Virus record (IMG/VR): IMGVR_UViG_2541047712_000002
DNA from: a virus
Lineage: Duplodnaviria; Heunggongvirae; Uroviricota; Caudoviricetes
Direction: 5' to 3' (one strand)
Length of the DNA: 64,000 nucleotides
Within the stretch, counting starts at the first letter, position 1. Each line of letters starts with the position of its first letter. A program made the position numbers. Shown here piece by piece: positions 6,001 to 12,000 of this stretch.

Positions 6001-9000
6001 GCAGTTTAGTCGCAACAACAAATCAGTTGAGGAAAAGATCCTTAGCGTAATCGGTCGATAATTATTAAGGCCATCAGCATTGGTGGCCTTAAATGACCAT
6101 CCTGTTTCCCGCAGGCTAAAAACACCAACCTCTTACCTCCAGGCAACCGACAAACCCACCTGTTCCCGTCCGGCTACCGCAACTTTCCACTTTGACGCCT
6201 TACTCGTACAACGATAATTAACACCAACAAGAAAACAATTTGTTATTTACGATAAGGAATTAATCATGAATTTTATCGCTACTGTAAACGCACCCGCACA
6301 TGGCAATATCGCTGTAACGTTCTCTGACATTGAAAAACGAGTACTTGGTGCATGGCGCGACAATGAGACGGTAGAACTGTCAGCACAAGAAAAATGCATT
6401 ATTGCACGCGACATCATTGGCAATCGTCGTTACTCGCGGGTATTTGAGAAAGCGTATGTGGTAAATTCTGGATTCGGAACGTTCGTCTTTCCGGTGCGCT
6501 CCGGGCGATTCTGCCAGTCCAAGCTGATTGAGTTCGCTACGCAGATTTCTGTCTGGATTAAAACTCAATCGTCGTTCAAATTTTCCGACGATGAAGCAGT
6601 ATCGCAGGGGATGCGGATCGCCAACAATGCGATTAAATGCAAAAACATTACGTATACCGCTGGCGTTGATACATGGAAACTGTTTTGCGCTAACTTTATG
6701 CTGAATGTATACGCAAGCAACCGCATCCACATCCTTGATGGCGTGTAACTGAGAAGAGGGCCAGAAACGGCCCTTTCTCTATAGCCACCAGCTGCCGCAG
6801 GGAAATTTTCAGAAACGGCGAGGAACGCATTCATGAGCCGACGGGAAACGGCCAGGATTTTTTCGGGAAACGGCTGCATTCGCCTTTATATAGAAAAAAC
6901 ATCGGGAAGCTGGTGGAATCCAACCAGCGGTTGTCGGACAGGTGAGCGGGGAAAATTATGATGACTTTCGTCGCCTGAGACATCCAGATTTCTTTCGTAG
7001 CGTAATCACATATGTGATTAAGTGGTGTGATTATGTGAAAAATCACGCGCACATAATACGCGAGCGGATACGGAACAAAACAAAATGCCGATCCGCGCCG
7101 ACAATTAAACGCGGATCACATAGCAAGAATAAAAGCCAATGATTAACCATACACCATAACGCAATATAACGCGTTTTAAGCGCGTTAATGTGTTAAGTAA
7201 TGGGTATATACTGGTAAGGATATAAAAGCTCGTCTGTGGCGTTATTTTGGCGCTTATTTTTATGTTGTTGGAGTGAGTCAAAGACAATAAAAAAGCGCCA
7301 TCATTGGCGCGTTATGGTGGAAGTATTGGAAACGAAAAAAGCGCCCATAGTGGGCGCTCGATTTTATTTATGTAAACTGATTTCAAATCCCATTTCTACA
7401 AACGCTTTTAACATTAAAAATATATCAGCGTCATTCACGTCTGCTTTTTTTCGCTCCTGGTCGCTCAATAAGTCAATTTTGCGCGTCGTTTCATCGATAA
7501 ACTCGACTGCGCGCCCATCGTAACCAGCGATCCCAGCGATGCGATTAACAAAATATTCATTGCGCACGTTAACGCCAGCGATAAGAATAAACATGATTAA
7601 GCTCCTTAAAAGCGCCCATAGTGGGCGCTATTGTTTTTATTTTTCTAAGTGAATATTAAAGCCAGCGTTTAAAAATTCTTGAAGCATTAAAGTTACATCA
7701 GCTTCATGGATTCCTGCGCGCGCTCTATGTTCTACGTCATTGATGTTTATTTTAAACGTTGTTTCGTCAACCACTTCAGAACTTAGAGCATACCCAGCTA
7801 AACCAGCAATATCATAAACAAGAGTATGATTGTTGATATTTACGCCAGAGATGAAAATAACCATGATTAAGCTCCTTTAAAGCGCCCATAGTGGGCGCTT
7901 GATTCCATTAATTACGCTTTGAAAGCATCAGCTAAATAATTGTAGAAATCATTTTTAATGAAGCGATATTGCTGAGTACCAGCTTTCGCGCTCCCAGCTC
8001 CTTTGACTTTTTCAACAAGTCCAAGACGTTCGCAAAGATTGATCAACTGGTTGGCTTGAGTATAGCCAGCGTCCAATTTAATTTCGCACGCTTTTTTAGC
8101 TTCATTCATTAAATCGAAAACAGCGCCATTGGTGAACGTGTCGATCTCGTCGTTAATCATATCGATTAAAGCGAATACACGAGATCCTGACATATCAGCG
8201 ACGGAATAAACGCATTTACCAGATTTAATTGATTTAACCAGATAAACCAGTTTTTCCAGTGAATAACTATTAGTCATAGCATCACGGAAAAATACTTCTG
8301 GCGCTTGTTTGCTTGCTTTAATCGCATAGTAGAAAACAGAGCATAATTTTTCGTCTTCTACAGCGTTTACGACGTTGTTGATGAAGTAAGCAAGTTTAGT
8401 GGTAGCAGCTTGCATATTTGCTTTGTCTGCTTTGGTGTGCGTACCATTTTTATAATGTTCATTATATGTTTGAGTTGCCAGATCTGCTTTTTCGCGCAGT
8501 TCATCGGATACAATGGAAGCAGCTTCAACGATGGATTTTTTAGAAATGATAATGTTAGCCATGATTTTATTCCTTAATGTAAATATTAAAATTTAACTCA
8601 AGAAAGAAAGTGTTTTGCACTCGTTCCTGATGCGTTCAATTATCGATACGTGAAAAAAGATTGCAAGTGTTTTTTTAAGTTTTTTTGCAGGGATGAAAGT
8701 CCTAGAAATAAAAGTTAGATCGTCGAAGGTGTTCCCTAAATAAATAATAAATTCCGGCTTTTGACCTTATATATTTATACGGGGGGAATTGAATGAGTGT
8801 TAAACGAATGGCATGTAAAATAATAACCGGACTTAGCCGGTTATTACCCTTATAGAAATTAAAACGGAAGGATTCGTTCAACCCAATCGAAGAAAATAAG
8901 TATTTTTCTACCGTCTTCCAACTTAAGTGTGACTAGACAGGCGTCAACGCCATCTGACGTTCCCTCAATTTCGCGACCGTCTGCCATGTAGACCCTTATA

Positions 9001-12000
9001 GATTTGCCGTTTTGGTAAGCCTGACGACATATCTTAAAAAAGTCACGACGTGATGGCTGATTAACCATCTGTTCATTGTTTAGCGTTAGTCGACCTGTGA
9101 ATGAAGTGTCAACCTCTTCTATGCCCGACTCAATTGTGCTAATGCGCTCAAGAGGGAGCCTTATACGATTTGTGTTGCTAAGCGGATCTGGTGTGAGGTT
9201 CAGCTTATTTCTTGCGCTCAATAGCCCGTAGACATACATGCAAAACACTTGGCCGTCTTCGAGAGTGACTCTTACAGGAAATTTTGCACTCCGCCAGAAG
9301 AGCAAGGTGCGCTCAGCATGTTCGTAGTCTCGCGGCCAGACTTCAGCCGGTATGCCGTAGGTGATGTCCAATGTTCTCATTCTGATACTCTTAGAGGTGT
9401 TTTCAGCAACCCAAATTTAAATTCTTTGTTACCAACGACAAAGAAGGGAACCTCAACATAGATTTTTTTATCGACGGATTTAGAGTTAGCTGTTTTCTGT
9501 ATGTCACGAACGATACGTTTTGAGATATTTTCATCGATAAACAATACCTTTCCACTTGTATTCCCTTCAGCCTTGGCGTAAGTAACGATAGGCTCTTCAT
9601 TGCCAACCCTAATGTTTACTTGGCAACCTGTTGTAGCCATTTCATCACAGTAAAGTGTGCCGTCTTGAACTTCTAAAACAATTCCAGATGGCTTCATGGC
9701 TTCGTCAGAGCTTACATTAACGTTTTCTGGTACAGCGGTCCCGTTAATTTGCAACCGTAATCTTTCTTTTCCTCCATTAAGTATTGTTTCTTCTGCGTTG
9801 TCTGAGAATCTGAACCAAACTGGCTGATTCAGACCTCGTGATTTGTATTCTACTACGTCTTCGGAGGTAAACATGCTGTACGTTTTTTGCATGTCATAGA
9901 CGAAATCTGATAATGCGTTGGCGGAAAACGCCGGGAGGTATATACAAGCAAGGAGTAACGAAAGTTTCATTTTCATATCATGATAATCCAATTATTTAAC
10001 ATCACACTTTCTAAGTTTTTCTATTTGTTCTAATTTTTCATGATCATCATTTAGATTTCCTTCGACTATCTCCGTTTCAAGTTTGCTGATTAGCATGTTA
10101 AGTGCGTTGTAGTTATTGCATTTTACTTTGTAGGCGTAGTATGACCTTGTCCCTGGTTTTTGTACACCCATATCATTAAAGTTAGAGCTTAAAGTATAAC
10201 CTTCAAGTTCAACCCCTTTTATTGTAGGAAGAATTATATTTAATGGTTCTAATTTAAATGGGTAGATATAAATATGTGATATGAAGTACTCTTCTGAAGA
10301 GATTTTCTTCATGTCTTTTGTGATTGAAACTGAATATTTACGGTTCCGAGTGATATAAAATTTTGTACATTTGTACGGCTCTAAGTTGAATAGATAATAT
10401 TTTTCTTTAAAAAGAACATCTTTTCCATGTGATATTTTATGTCGTAAAGAGTTAATTATTTTGTTTATAGAAATACTCATCTACAGTATCCGACCTTAGT
10501 TATCAATTGAAAAGCCTACAAATATCGTTCAGCCAATCAAGAAATTTTTTCAGCCGGAGGTGTGTGCTTCAAAAAATGTGATGAATGTCACATGCAGGTG
10601 CTCTCATACACCTGCATGTAGACTATTAATCATTCAATAATCTATATTTTCTTTTGATTAAATCTTCACCTTTTTTGGTGAACACAAAACCAAATTGCGA
10701 TTTTTTGTTCAGCCTAAGGACTCTGTTATCCAACGCATCGGTTGATGGAATCAATGTTTGATCATCTATCCAATTTAGTAGCGTAAGAAAGTTCAGCAGC
10801 CTCAACGTTGTTGTGCGAAGCTCTTTCGATATATTTTCAATGCTGGCAATTCGTCTTTCTTTTTTCTCAGGTGGTACAGACAATTGTTCTTGAGGTTTCG
10901 TGGATAGATAATCAATTTCGTTTGCAGCATCGAATGATATGTGTGGCGTTATTTTGCTAAAAAAGCCTTTCGCTGACTCACTTGATAATAAACCAGACCT
11001 ATTCATATCGTTTGTTATTCTGTACAGGAGTGGACTGTGTTTCATTTCAGGATAACGTTGATAAAAGTTAAGCAATTCAAAAGCAGCATTAGCGCCAACA
11101 AGAAAATCAGAAGGATCGCTGACTTTCCAGAAAGAATGATTTTTCTTAGCGCCAGTGGTGTCAACAAATGATAATTCTTTTAACCAACTCATGATGTGCT
11201 CCTTTCTAACAAGTGAGCACATCATAGAATTAGTAGATAGGGGGTAAATATGAAATGTTACGGCAACCTGCTCAGTATTTCCTCTAAATCCTTTTTTGTC
11301 ATATTGGAGTTTTCATAGATGCGCATGATTTTCTCACGCGTCTTAGCGGAAACCCCAACAGCAGATGTGACTTTGTCAAATTCAGCCATAGTCATCGTCT
11401 CCAGAATGGCATTGATAACTTCAGCCTTAGACATCTTGATTTTTTTCTCTTTGAGTTTTATTTGAAATTTTCCAAGTTTTTCATTGGCCTTATCAGACAA
11501 TGCCACTTGGCAATAAGTTGTTTTCTTTTCGCTCATAACTAATCTCGTTTCAGAACTCCAAAATCGAATGCGCCATCAATAGGCAATACACCTTCTGCAA
11601 AGCCAGGTGTGGTGTCGATGATGTGTTTTCGCTCATAAGAGTGAGACAACAGGTATTTGTTGCTAATGTCAATGAAATCAGTGATAAAACACACGTTTGC
11701 CTGATTCTTCTTGGCTCGTAAGCCACGACCGACACGCTGTCTCATTTCAACTTCTGCTTTCCCACCACCAGCAAGAATGACCGCACCAACGCTTGGCACA
11801 TCAACACCAACATCCAGAATAGTCGAGCCTATTAAAACATCTATTTCACCAGACGCTAAACTGTTCAGCTTTGCTTGCCTTGTCGACTGGTTCGATTCCC
11901 CATAAATGAAGTCAACTCTAAGGCCGGACTCCTTCATCATCTCCATCAGGATTTGCCCGTGGCGTTTAAGACGAACCAGAGTCATGCAATTGAGAGAATG

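What the first reader, a model, noticed from the sequence alone, without database searches (positions are those of the whole stretch)
8859..10480. AT-rich three-gene cassette with its own promoter and terminators, encoding a signal-peptide protein and two unknowns
Genes 9992-10480, 9377-9991 (secreted or lipoprotein) and 8859-9380 abut or overlap. They are set off upstream by a terminator plus palindrome (10590-10620) and downstream by a hairpin (about 8830-8850), and have lower GC than the flanking helicase and structural genes. This is the typical layout of a horizontally acquired moron; an envelope-targeted protein suggests superinfection exclusion or receptor modification. The neighbouring 7912-8562 and 10626-11536 genes are also uncharacterised.
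Basis: inference. Interest (0 to 1): 0.55.

Follow-up and report, generated by a model that had tools for sequence, protein, structure and literature searches.

The report
Phage-plasmid cargo slot plus FljA-like repressor
The three genes are real, but they are not one acquired unit: two are rare, AT-rich cargo genes (one cytoplasmic, one exported to the periplasm), and the third is a homologue of the Salmonella flagellin translation repressor FljA that nearly every SSU5-like phage-plasmid carries at this position, including those living in bacteria that have no flagella.

Summary
The window is an E. coli SSU5/pHCM2-like phage-plasmid. The three minus-strand ORFs, both flanking hairpins and the gene abutments exist as described.

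Gene 8859-9380 is not an unknown. It is a full-length FljA-family protein (Pfam Flag1_repress, 230 bits; 34% identical to Salmonella FljA). Its predicted fold is two tandem Hfq/Sm-like domains. It is a backbone gene: it occurs in about 835 plasmids and keeps its position down to 25% identity, including in Klebsiella and in Y. pestis pMT1. It is under purifying selection (dN/dS 0.08-0.20), yet its alleles have been swapped between near-identical backbones.

Only the other two genes are cargo. The 162-aa gene (28.8% GC) occurs in 23 plasmids. The 204-aa gene occurs in 65 plasmids and encodes a signal-peptidase-I-cleaved periplasmic beta-sandwich protein, not a lipoprotein. Both sit in a variable slot (65-2931 bp) behind a conserved terminator and promoter block. 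In relatives, that block drives other pairs of a 162-aa-family protein plus an exported protein.

Cargo type does not track the tail-fibre type, so self-receptor masking is not supported.

The RNA target of the FljA-like protein is unproven. Host fliC is the obvious candidate, but the aflagellate hosts and the motile carrier strain LF82 argue for a different or additional target.

The parts
10569..10619 (-). Terminator-like element ending the helicase-p92-p199 transcription unit. It consists of a 12-bp hairpin (10619-10590), a 4-bp hairpin (10589-10576) and a T-run (10575-10569).
   Evidence: Fold dG -25.1, z -4.65. In relatives whose p199 is only 42-43% identical, the hairpin is kept through compensatory stem changes, and the GTGA..TCAC plus T-run is conserved.
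10513..10557 (-). Conserved slot promoter block: CCGGCTG-A6, a -35 TTGATT (10540-10535), a 16-nt spacer and a -10 TAGGCT (10518-10513).
   Evidence: The block is found on the fljA strand only, directly upstream of different cargo genes, in at least 22 of 93 related loci. It is weak by sigma-70 consensus and was not reported by the scan. The transcription start has not been mapped.
9992..10480 (-). p162: a 162-aa cytoplasmic cargo protein of unknown function (PHROG 25050), 28.8% GC. It belongs to a small family that is always the first gene after the slot promoter.
   Evidence: Only 3 protein clusters among 5.8 billion. Present in 23 plasmids. dN/dS 0.15. Family alignment A4 shows a shared (Y/F)P(F/Y)...G(I/V)..G...LSSNF core, and a 377-aa relative in L022 carries a C-terminal HNH domain.
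9377..9991 (-). p204: an exported cargo protein (PHROG 18942). The probable start is ATG 9976 or 9970. It has a 21-aa Sec signal peptide cleaved after FSANA, a mature beta-sandwich domain and two invariant cysteines.
8859..9380 (-). FljA-family protein of 173 aa. It has a conserved N-terminal peptide (DITYGIPAEVWPRDY), a first Sm-like domain (about 20-86), a fast-evolving linker (87-110) and a second Sm-like domain (111-173). Its start overlaps the p204 stop (ATGA).
8817..8850 (-). Intrinsic-terminator-like hairpin after the fljA-like gene, with a 10-bp core stem, a 6-nt loop and UUUU.
   Evidence: dG -15.3, z -3.2. The sequence is nearly invariant in E. coli, Salmonella, Yersinia and Klebsiella relatives, even where an extra small gene lies between fljA-like and the hairpin.

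Best explanation
The span is a composite. (1) A variable cargo slot of an SSU5-like phage-plasmid lies between the conserved 92-aa gene (downstream of the UvsW-like helicase) and the conserved fljA-like gene. In this element the slot holds p199, then a terminator and a conserved promoter block, then p162 (a cytoplasmic protein of unknown family) and p204 (a periplasmic beta-sandwich protein). (2) The slot is read through into a backbone gene that encodes an FljA-family protein, translationally coupled to p204 and closed by a conserved terminator.

Inferred mechanism. By homology with FljA, the FljA-like protein is a post-transcriptional repressor: its two Hfq/Sm-like domains and its invariant N-terminal peptide bind an mRNA leader and block translation. 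In flagellated hosts such as E. coli, the only target known for this family is fliC mRNA. Expression in the plasmid state would therefore damp flagellin synthesis conditionally rather than abolish it. The p162/p204 pair is exchangeable lysogenic-conversion cargo acting at the envelope, and its substrate is unknown.

Shown: gene reality, family membership, predicted fold, distribution, slot architecture, allelic exchange, and transcription of the orthologue in a lysogen of a close relative. Inferred: RNA binding, the identity of the target, and any envelope or exclusion role.
For: Family and fold. Backbone status: 835 plasmids, 825 of them full length, with the same syntenic position down to 25-38% identity. 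Selection: dN/dS is 0.08-0.20 in every clade, and dN is about 0 in the N-terminal peptide. Slot variability: length 65-2931 bp, long slots at 35-39% GC, and five cargo families in the recurring order promoter, p162-family, exported protein, fljA-like. Promoter and terminator conservation. Family function: FljA(z66) acts post-transcriptionally on fliC, and the plasmid carrying it makes motile E. coli non-motile (PMC2652032). Expression: in LF82, the Cyrano orthologue CYRAN_114 and the adjacent lipoprotein gene CYRAN_115 are transcribed while neighbouring genes stay near background (CYRAN_113 2.3-3.9, rising to about 5.6 only at 6 h in macrophages; CYRAN_119 2.3-5.2). Their log2(fpkm+5) rises from about 4.2 and 4.8 in LB stationary phase to 7-8 and 8-9.4 in DMEM and in macrophages (PMC9928086 S1 Table).
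Against: No member of this phage-plasmid subfamily has been tested, and I found no paper linking fljA to SSU5-like elements. Unlike every characterised FljA, FlkB or FljA(z66), it is not linked to an alternative flagellin gene. Intact orthologues under purifying selection are retained in Klebsiella plasmids (345 records; dN/dS 0.12 in the Klebsiella-type clade) and in Y. pestis pMT1 (62 records), which are hosts without functional flagella. That Klebsiella lacks flagella and Y. pestis is non-motile is general knowledge, not tested here. LF82 carries a 75%-identical orthologue and is motile and flagellated in a fliC-dependent way (PMC10809763). CYRAN_114 was not among the genes at least 5-fold above background in LB. 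RNA binding is inferred from fold and homology only. The slot promoter is weak by consensus.
Confidence: 0.55

Rival explanations
1. The FljA-like protein is an Hfq-like RNA-binding regulator of the phage-plasmid's own genes (maintenance, the lysis-lysogeny decision or early-gene translation) or of host mRNAs other than fliC. Flagellin repression would then be a derived function of the Salmonella and E. coli chromosomal copies.
For: Positional orthologues are kept in all lineages, including divergent Klebsiella elements at 25-38% identity. Purifying selection holds in the Klebsiella-type clade. Y. pestis pMT1 keeps an intact copy. In an NJ tree, Salmonella FljA branches inside the diversity spanned by the phage-plasmid proteins. 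Carrier strain LF82 is motile. Old alleles are swapped between backbones whose helicase dS is 0.03-0.12 while fljA dS is 0.25-1.5, and the breakpoint lies exactly at the start codon, a pattern typical of specificity or immunity genes. The gene lies in an operon with helicase-side early genes.
Against: No candidate cis target was found. The conserved leader motif upstream of the next gene (TCGAAAGC-N6-GCTAACGA) does not co-vary one-to-one with the fljA alleles. The N-terminal peptide and the C-terminal motifs are shared with genuine FljA, which fits a shared target. Phage-plasmids can move between flagellated and aflagellate Enterobacterales, so selection in Klebsiella lineages is not decisive. 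The tree uses a midpoint root and has long branches.
Confidence: 0.33
2. p162 plus p204, alone or with the FljA-like protein, form a superinfection-exclusion or anti-phage module. The periplasmic protein would block entry of incoming phage, and flagellin shut-off would remove the receptor of flagellotropic phages.
For: In different relatives the gene just upstream of fljA-like is one of three unrelated families of exported proteins: two lipoprotein families (one of which also has a short 118-aa signal-peptide form) and the signal-peptide protein family found here. Such proteins are classic prophage exclusion factors (general knowledge: T5 Llp, phi80/N15 Cor). The slot is a variable, low-GC hot spot. 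A p162-family domain is fused to an HNH nuclease in L022, with weak PADLOC hits to HNH and type IV restriction models. The lipoprotein gene is well transcribed in the Cyrano lysogen.
Against: None of the three window proteins matches a PADLOC model. Cargo family does not track the receptor-binding proteins. The window's J C-terminus is 88% identical to SSU5 (which carries different cargo) but only 62-64% identical to the two phages that share its p204-family cargo (one of them, CP054387, shares the whole cassette). Cyrano and CP053388 show the same 72.4% identity of the J C-terminus to the window but carry different cargo. p204 is not a lipoprotein. Fold searches gave only a generic beta-sandwich. 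The link between p162 and the HNH fusion rests on 14% identity plus shared motifs.
Confidence: 0.3
3. The ORFs, or at least the 162-aa one, are chance open frames in AT-rich spacer DNA, and the hairpins are incidental.
For: p162 and p204 have weak Shine-Dalgarno sequences. RefSeq annotates a shorter 106-aa product in one relative.
Against: A 162-codon open frame at 29% GC is itself unlikely. dN/dS is 0.15 across homologues 54% identical with saturated dS. Full-length PHROG profiles exist for all three. The hairpin shows compensatory changes.
Confidence: 0.02

Closest known systems
FljA, the phase-1 flagellin repressor of Salmonella enterica (fljBA operon), and its relatives FlkB/FljA54 of E. 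coli flagellin islets and FljA(z66) of linear plasmid pBSSB1
   Same: Same Pfam family (PF03614) over the full length. Same size (173 against 179 aa). Shared N-terminal DI(T/S)YGxxAE(V/I)WPRDY peptide and shared PSRRD(F/Y)F..IC and FDWVxRI motifs. The family is known to act post-transcriptionally on fliC mRNA (PMC2652032).
   Different: Only 34% identical. Not linked to any flagellin gene or invertase. It sits in a phage-plasmid backbone next to a helicase operon, is co-transcribed with an exported protein, and has orthologues in aflagellate hosts. No functional test exists.
SSU5_121 ('putative repressor of phase 1 flagellin'), the pHCM2 'repressor of fliC' gene, the Y. pestis pMT1 orthologue and Cyrano CYRAN_114
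   Same: Positional orthologues at 67-75% identity, lying between the 92-aa gene and the 216-aa gene and followed by the same terminator hairpin.
   Different: The upstream cargo differs: a 140-aa DUF2846-like lipoprotein in SSU5 and pMT1, and a 266-aa lipoprotein on the opposite strand in Cyrano. The window's fljA allele belongs to a different allelic lineage from most elements that share its cargo.
Hfq / Sm-like RNA-binding proteins
Prophage morons and receptor-blocking exclusion proteins (T5 Llp, phi80/N15 Cor, lambda Bor; general knowledge)
   Same: Low-GC, patchily distributed genes with their own promoter block and terminators, and an envelope-targeted product.
   Different: p204 has no lipobox and no sequence or decisive fold similarity to those proteins. 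It does not co-vary with the receptor-binding proteins.

Membership tests
FljA / Flag1_repress (Pfam PF03614) | Whole-protein match to the family profile above the curated threshold | tested here: met
   230.5 bits against a cut-off of 24, E 1.4e-68, profile positions 1-170 of 170. PHROG 1444, E 1.1e-89.
FljA / Flag1_repress (Pfam PF03614) | Full-length homology to an experimentally characterised member (Salmonella FljA) | tested here: met
   34% identity, E 9e-36, residues 1-170 against 4-172 of P0122, which its sources name 'phase 1 flagellin gene repressor FljA'.
FljA / Flag1_repress (Pfam PF03614) | Genetic linkage to an alternative flagellin gene (fljB, flkA, flmA, fljB-z66), as in all characterised members | tested here: not met
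   No flagellin gene lies in the locus or in any of 93 related loci. The neighbours are the helicase, p92, cargo genes and p216.
FljA / Flag1_repress (Pfam PF03614) | Binds the fliC mRNA leader and blocks FliC translation | not testable with these tools
   Only indirect data. Orthologue carriers include the motile strain LF82 and aflagellate Klebsiella. No fliC-leader-like sequence occurs in the window beyond chance.
Sm / Hfq-like fold | An N-terminal helix followed by five strongly bent antiparallel strands, superposable on Hfq/LSm | tested here: met
Sm / Hfq-like fold | Ring oligomer with conserved RNA-binding pockets | not tested
   No multimer model or residue mapping was done. No solved relative exists.
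Prophage moron | Patchy presence among otherwise closely related genomes | tested here: met
   Met for p162 (23 plasmids) and p204 (65), against 835 for the backbone gene. The slot is empty in L011, L041, L062 and L084-L090. Not met for the fljA-like gene.
Prophage moron | Own promoter and terminator, independent of phage lytic control | tested here: inconclusive
   The conserved promoter block and the flanking terminators are present. However, the -10 is weak and there are no transcription-start or expression data for this cargo. The Cyrano orthologue of fljA-like is transcribed in lysogens.
Prophage moron | Atypical base composition | tested here: met
   p162 is 28.8% GC (0.6th percentile) and p204 is 39.3%. 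The fljA-like gene at 46.4% is not atypical.
Receptor-blocking exclusion lipoproteins (Llp/Cor type) | Lipobox with a conserved Cys at +1 | tested here: not met
   The Cys in the h-region is absent in homologues P0089, P0090 and P0093, while the AxA cleavage site FSANA|LS is conserved.
Receptor-blocking exclusion lipoproteins (Llp/Cor type) | Specificity matched to the phage's own receptor-binding protein | tested here: not met
   The identity rankings of the J C-terminus and the side fibre are unrelated to cargo family in five sequenced relatives. The sample is small.
Known anti-phage defence systems (PADLOC) | Match to a defence-system protein model | tested here: not met
   No hit for p162, p204 or fljA-like at E <= 0.01.

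The most novel reading that the evidence does not exclude
The FljA family is primarily an ancient backbone gene of SSU5-type phage-plasmids. It would encode a tandem-Sm (Hfq-like) translational regulator that controls the element's own programme or a wider set of host mRNAs, and whose alleles are exchanged like immunity or specificity determinants. The Salmonella phase-variation repressor FljA would then be a domesticated copy, like the phage-derived Hin invertase next to it.
Probability: 0.3. Interest if true: 0.7.

Novelty: new variant of a known kind. Interest (0 to 1): 0.45.

Why it matters
SSU5/pHCM2/pMT1-like phage-plasmids are common in clinical Enterobacterales: here they appear in 130 of 5,426 complete E. 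coli genomes, and they include S. Typhi pHCM2 and Y. pestis pMT1. If their universal FljA-like gene represses flagellin translation, these elements would modulate motility, sensitivity to flagellotropic phages and flagellin-driven innate immunity in their hosts, and the orthologue is up-regulated in macrophage-associated LF82. If instead it regulates other RNAs, it would be a new class of mobile-element-encoded Hfq-like regulator and would revise the origin of a textbook phase-variation component. The adjacent slot is a defined, promoter-equipped site where exported proteins are exchanged, which makes it a convenient place to look for lysogenic-conversion or exclusion functions.

Tried and rejected
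1. Pfam, NCBIfam and PADLOC scans of p162 and p204 gave no significant family. A YmgB hit on p162 was below threshold.
2. PDB sequence searches with profiles of fljA-like and p204 gave nothing.
4. Lipoprotein status for p204 was rejected.
5. The chromosomal homologue P0073 (48% identity) is not next to a flagellin gene. It sits in what looks like an integrated copy of the same region.
6. A search of the window for a sequence resembling the fliC 5' leader found a best match no better than shuffled controls.
7. The leader of the downstream gene was tested as an allele-specific target. Its motif is shared across most fljA allele groups, so it does not co-vary one-to-one.
8. Positive selection on the fljA-like domains was not seen. 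Only the linker approaches dN/dS of 1. The divergence reflects exchange of old alleles and intragenic mosaicism.
9. The cargo-versus-tail-fibre co-variation test was negative.
10. An Rfam scan of the region found nothing.
11. Literature searches for fljA with SSU5, phage-plasmid or pHCM2 found no functional study. The two primary papers on the FljA mechanism were not available to read.

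
Full report
**Identity of the window.** Region 7500-13200 matches SSU5/pHCM2-like phage-plasmids. The best phage hit is Escherichia phage CMS-2020a (96% identity over 96% of the query). The region also matches Cyrano (the LF82 plasmid), SSU5 and Klebsiella phage-plasmids. In PLSDB it matches 775 plasmids, almost all non-mobilizable and about 110 kb long, from Klebsiella, Escherichia, Enterobacter, Yersinia and Salmonella. The rest of the window carries a siphovirus structural module with a 1531-aa tape-measure protein, a J-like central fibre and a side fibre, as well as a DnaB-like helicase.

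**Check of the observation.**
- The three minus-strand ORFs are at the stated coordinates.
- The 162-aa ORF ends in a TAA that is followed at once by the TTG of the 204-aa ORF. The more probable starts of the 204-aa ORF are the ATGs at 9976 and 9970, and relatives are annotated with 199 or 197 aa.
- The 204-aa ORF ends in a TGA that overlaps the ATG of the 173-aa ORF (ATGA), an arrangement that allows translational coupling.
- The upstream palindrome is a perfect 12-bp hairpin at 10619-10590 (dG -25.1, z -4.65). It is followed by a 4-bp hairpin and AUUUUUU.
- The downstream hairpin at 8850-8817 has a 10-bp core stem followed by UUUU (dG -15.3, z -3.2).
- Composition is uneven. The window mean is 44.4% GC. 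p162 is 28.8% (0.6th percentile), p204 is 39.3% and the third gene is 46.4%. The span as a whole is at the 14th percentile.
- All three ORFs are under purifying selection and have full-length PHROG profiles.
- The neighbouring '10626-11536 gene' is really two ORFs, of 199 aa and 92 aa.

**The third gene is an FljA homologue.**
- The 173-aa product matches Pfam PF03614 (Flag1_repress, 'Repressor of phase-1 flagellin') end to end, at 230.5 bits against a cut-off of 24.
- An exhaustive HMMER search of 1.84 billion representatives found only 28 clusters, so the family is small.
- One of those clusters, with 1141 members, is named 'phase 1 flagellin gene repressor FljA [Salmonella enterica]' by its sources. 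The pairwise alignment to it is 34% identical over the whole length, E 9e-36.
- The two proteins share an N-terminal peptide (DITYGIPAEVWPRDY against DISYGREAEIWPRDY). They also share the motifs PSRRD(F/Y)F..IC and FDWVxRI.
- Orthologues are already annotated this way in SSU5 ('putative repressor of phase 1 flagellin') and in pHCM2 ('flagellar synthesis: repressor of fliC'). I found no functional study of them.
- For the wider family, FljA(z66) of plasmid pBSSB1 was shown to prevent FliC production while fliC mRNA remains. A derivative of that plasmid renders motile E. coli non-motile (PMC2652032).

**The FljA-like gene is backbone, not cargo.**
- tblastn finds it in 835 PLSDB plasmids, 825 of them full length: Klebsiella 345, Escherichia 229, Enterobacter 92, Yersinia 62 (pMT1) and Salmonella 60. 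It is also in 14 phage records.
- In 93 loci the order is constant: ParB genes / helicase - 92-aa gene - [slot] - fljA-like - [optional small gene] - conserved hairpin - 216-aa gene.
- Two divergent Klebsiella phage-plasmids with other replicon types keep a family member of only 25-38% identity at exactly this position.
- dN/dS is 0.08-0.20 within every allele group, including the Klebsiella-type group (0.12).
- The N-terminal peptide has dN of about 0 even where dS exceeds 1. The linker is the only fast-evolving part.

**Allelic exchange.** Elements whose helicase and 216-aa genes are nearly identical (dS 0.03-0.2) carry fljA-like alleles with dS 0.25-1.5 and 67-100% protein identity. Against L020, the window is 100% identical through p199, p162 and p204. 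Identity drops to 50-90% exactly at the fljA start codon and recovers in the 216-aa gene. Against L013, the reverse mosaic is seen. The window is therefore a recombinant: the cargo of one lineage joined to the fljA allele of another. The pattern is exchange of old alleles rather than positive selection.

**The slot and its cargo.**
- The interval between the 92-aa gene and fljA-like ranges from 65 to 2931 bp. Long versions are 35-39% GC.
- Cargo proteins fall into a few families:
  - p199-like proteins;
  - a p162-like family (162-204 aa, with a 377-aa member fused to an HNH nuclease, Pfam HNH 27.7 bits);
  - a roughly 140-aa DUF2846-like lipoprotein (SSU5, pMT1, and Klebsiella where it is inverted);
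  - a 259-266-aa lipoprotein with a related 118-aa secreted form (Cyrano and others);
  - the p204 family.
- The recurring order is: terminator, promoter block, p162-family gene, exported protein, fljA-like.
- The terminator after p199 keeps its structure through compensatory changes in elements whose p199 is only 42-43% identical. The block CCGGCTG-A6..TCTTGATT-N16-TAGGCT then precedes different first cargo genes in at least 22 of 93 loci, always on the fljA strand.
- This is good comparative evidence for a dedicated slot promoter, although it is weak by sigma-70 consensus.
- p162 occurs in only 23 plasmids and 3 protein clusters. p204 occurs in 65 plasmids and 14 clusters.
- The full three-gene arrangement is present in 35 of 5,426 complete E. 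coli genomes, and always on plasmids.

**Test of the exclusion idea.** If the exported protein masked the phage's own receptor, cargo family should follow the receptor-binding proteins. It does not.
- The window's J C-terminal 399 residues are 88% identical to SSU5, which carries the lipoprotein cargo.
- They are 72% identical to both Cyrano (266-aa lipoprotein) and CP053388 (140-aa lipoprotein).
- They are only 64% identical to PhiR41_1 and 62% identical to CP054387, the two phages that share its p204-family cargo (CP054387 shares the whole cassette).
- The side fibre is 96% identical to a lambdoid phage. Among the phage-plasmids it matches only PhiR41_1, at 72%.

The sample is small. Exclusion of unrelated phages is not addressed.

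**What does the FljA-like protein act on?**
- For fliC: family membership, shared motifs, and the cross-species activity of FljA(z66) in E. coli.
- Against fliC as the sole target: there is no linked flagellin gene. Orthologues are retained under selection in Klebsiella and Y. pestis plasmids. LF82, which carries a 75%-identical orthologue, shows fliC-dependent flagella and strong swimming in LB soft agar.
- Expression data from that strain soften the last point. CYRAN_114 is low in LB stationary phase (log2(fpkm+5) about 4.2). It rises to 7.0-7.4 in DMEM and 8.0-8.1 inside macrophages. The flanking genes stay near background in most conditions (CYRAN_113 2.3-3.9, about 5.6 at 6 h in macrophages; CYRAN_119 2.3-5.2). 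The adjacent lipoprotein gene CYRAN_115 behaves like CYRAN_114 (4.8 rising to 8-9.4) (PMC9928086 S1 Table). The gene is thus transcribed in the plasmid state and in a condition-dependent way, so conditional damping of flagellin is possible.
- No fliC-leader-like sequence occurs in the window. A conserved leader motif before the 216-aa gene does not track the fljA alleles.
- An NJ tree places Salmonella FljA inside the diversity of the phage-plasmid proteins. This makes a phage-plasmid origin of the family plausible but not proven.

**Verdict.** The finding is a promoter-equipped cargo slot carrying two genes, one for an orphan cytoplasmic protein and one for a periplasmic protein, fused transcriptionally to a conserved FljA-family gene. 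It is not a three-gene acquired moron with three unknowns. I assign:
- about 0.9 to the anatomy and the family assignment;
- about 0.55 to the overall working model, including RNA binding and conditional fliC repression in flagellated hosts;
- about 0.33 to the rival that the main target is not fliC;
- about 0.3 to an exclusion or defence role for the cargo, which is compatible with either of the other models.

Interest is moderate. The gene name is already in the databases. The points that are testable and not described in the literature I could search are its universality in phage-plasmids of aflagellate hosts, its tandem Sm-like fold, the allele swapping, and the structured cargo slot.

Noticed in passing
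window 8563-8665 (leader and promoter of the 216-aa gene at 7912-8562); loci L001-L092: A conserved promoter (TTGCAA-N16-GATAAT) is followed in most relatives by a leader motif, TCGAAAGC-N6-GCTAACGA. The motif is a hairpin or an imperfect palindrome with conserved AA/AA mismatches and some compensatory stem changes. In the window, and in the fljA allele group it belongs to, the motif is replaced by an unrelated sequence (CATCAGGAACGAGTGCAAAACAC...). Its function is unknown.
   Followed up: partly
L005, L019, L046, L081 (between fljA-like and the conserved hairpin); absent in the window: A second small cargo site lies downstream of fljA-like in some relatives. It holds a gene of about 99 aa for a Cys-rich protein with a signal peptide, in two versions (MKTVAAFTFLTF... 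and MKSILLPPLFLL...), inserted upstream of the conserved terminator.
   Followed up: no
window 7364-7594 and 7637-7864; hairpins at 7340-7358 and 7611-7629: Two tandem paralogues of 76 and 75 aa, both PHROG 1585 of unknown function. Each is followed by the same GC-rich hairpin, AGCGCCCATAGTGGGCGCT. Relatives carry one or two copies in different combinations.
   Followed up: no
L022, about 3.9-5.0 kb (between p199 and the 266-aa lipoprotein gene): A 377-aa cargo protein whose N-terminal part resembles the p162 family and whose C-terminus is an HNH endonuclease (Pfam HNH 27.7 bits; weak PADLOC hits to HNH and type IV restriction models). Cyrano (L001) and L019 have the start of the same gene after the promoter block, but no ORF of that length was found in Cyrano's slot, so its copy may be truncated.
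   Followed up: partly
window 37063-40743: The tail fibres are mosaic. The J C-terminus is closest to Salmonella phage SSU5 (88%). The 795-aa side fibre is 96% identical, over residues 179-795, to lambdoid E. coli phages PhiR49_1 and PhiR49_1_star. This indicates exchange of a fibre module with unrelated phages.
   Followed up: no
window about 2550-3500: A stretch of about 1 kb with extreme strand composition (GC skew down to -0.48, AT skew up to +0.52). It has no convincing ORF, no tandem repeat and no Rfam match. It could be an origin or a non-coding feature.
   Followed up: partly
L011 (MAG 'Candidatus Fimivivens'), L012 (MAG 'Bacillota bacterium'); protein P0079 ('Gemella morbillorum'): Typical enterobacterial SSU5-like phage-plasmid contigs or proteins are filed under Bacillota genomes or MAGs. 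These are most likely binning or contamination errors.
   Followed up: no
L004 (E. coli chromosome CP125919, 385-398 kb): A chromosomal copy of the helicase fragment - p92 - p199 - p204-like - fljA-like (48%) - p216 fragment region. It appears to be an integrated and partly degraded SSU5-like element.
   Followed up: partly
window 54898-55061: Two adjacent tRNA genes lie on the plus strand of the phage-plasmid.
   Followed up: no
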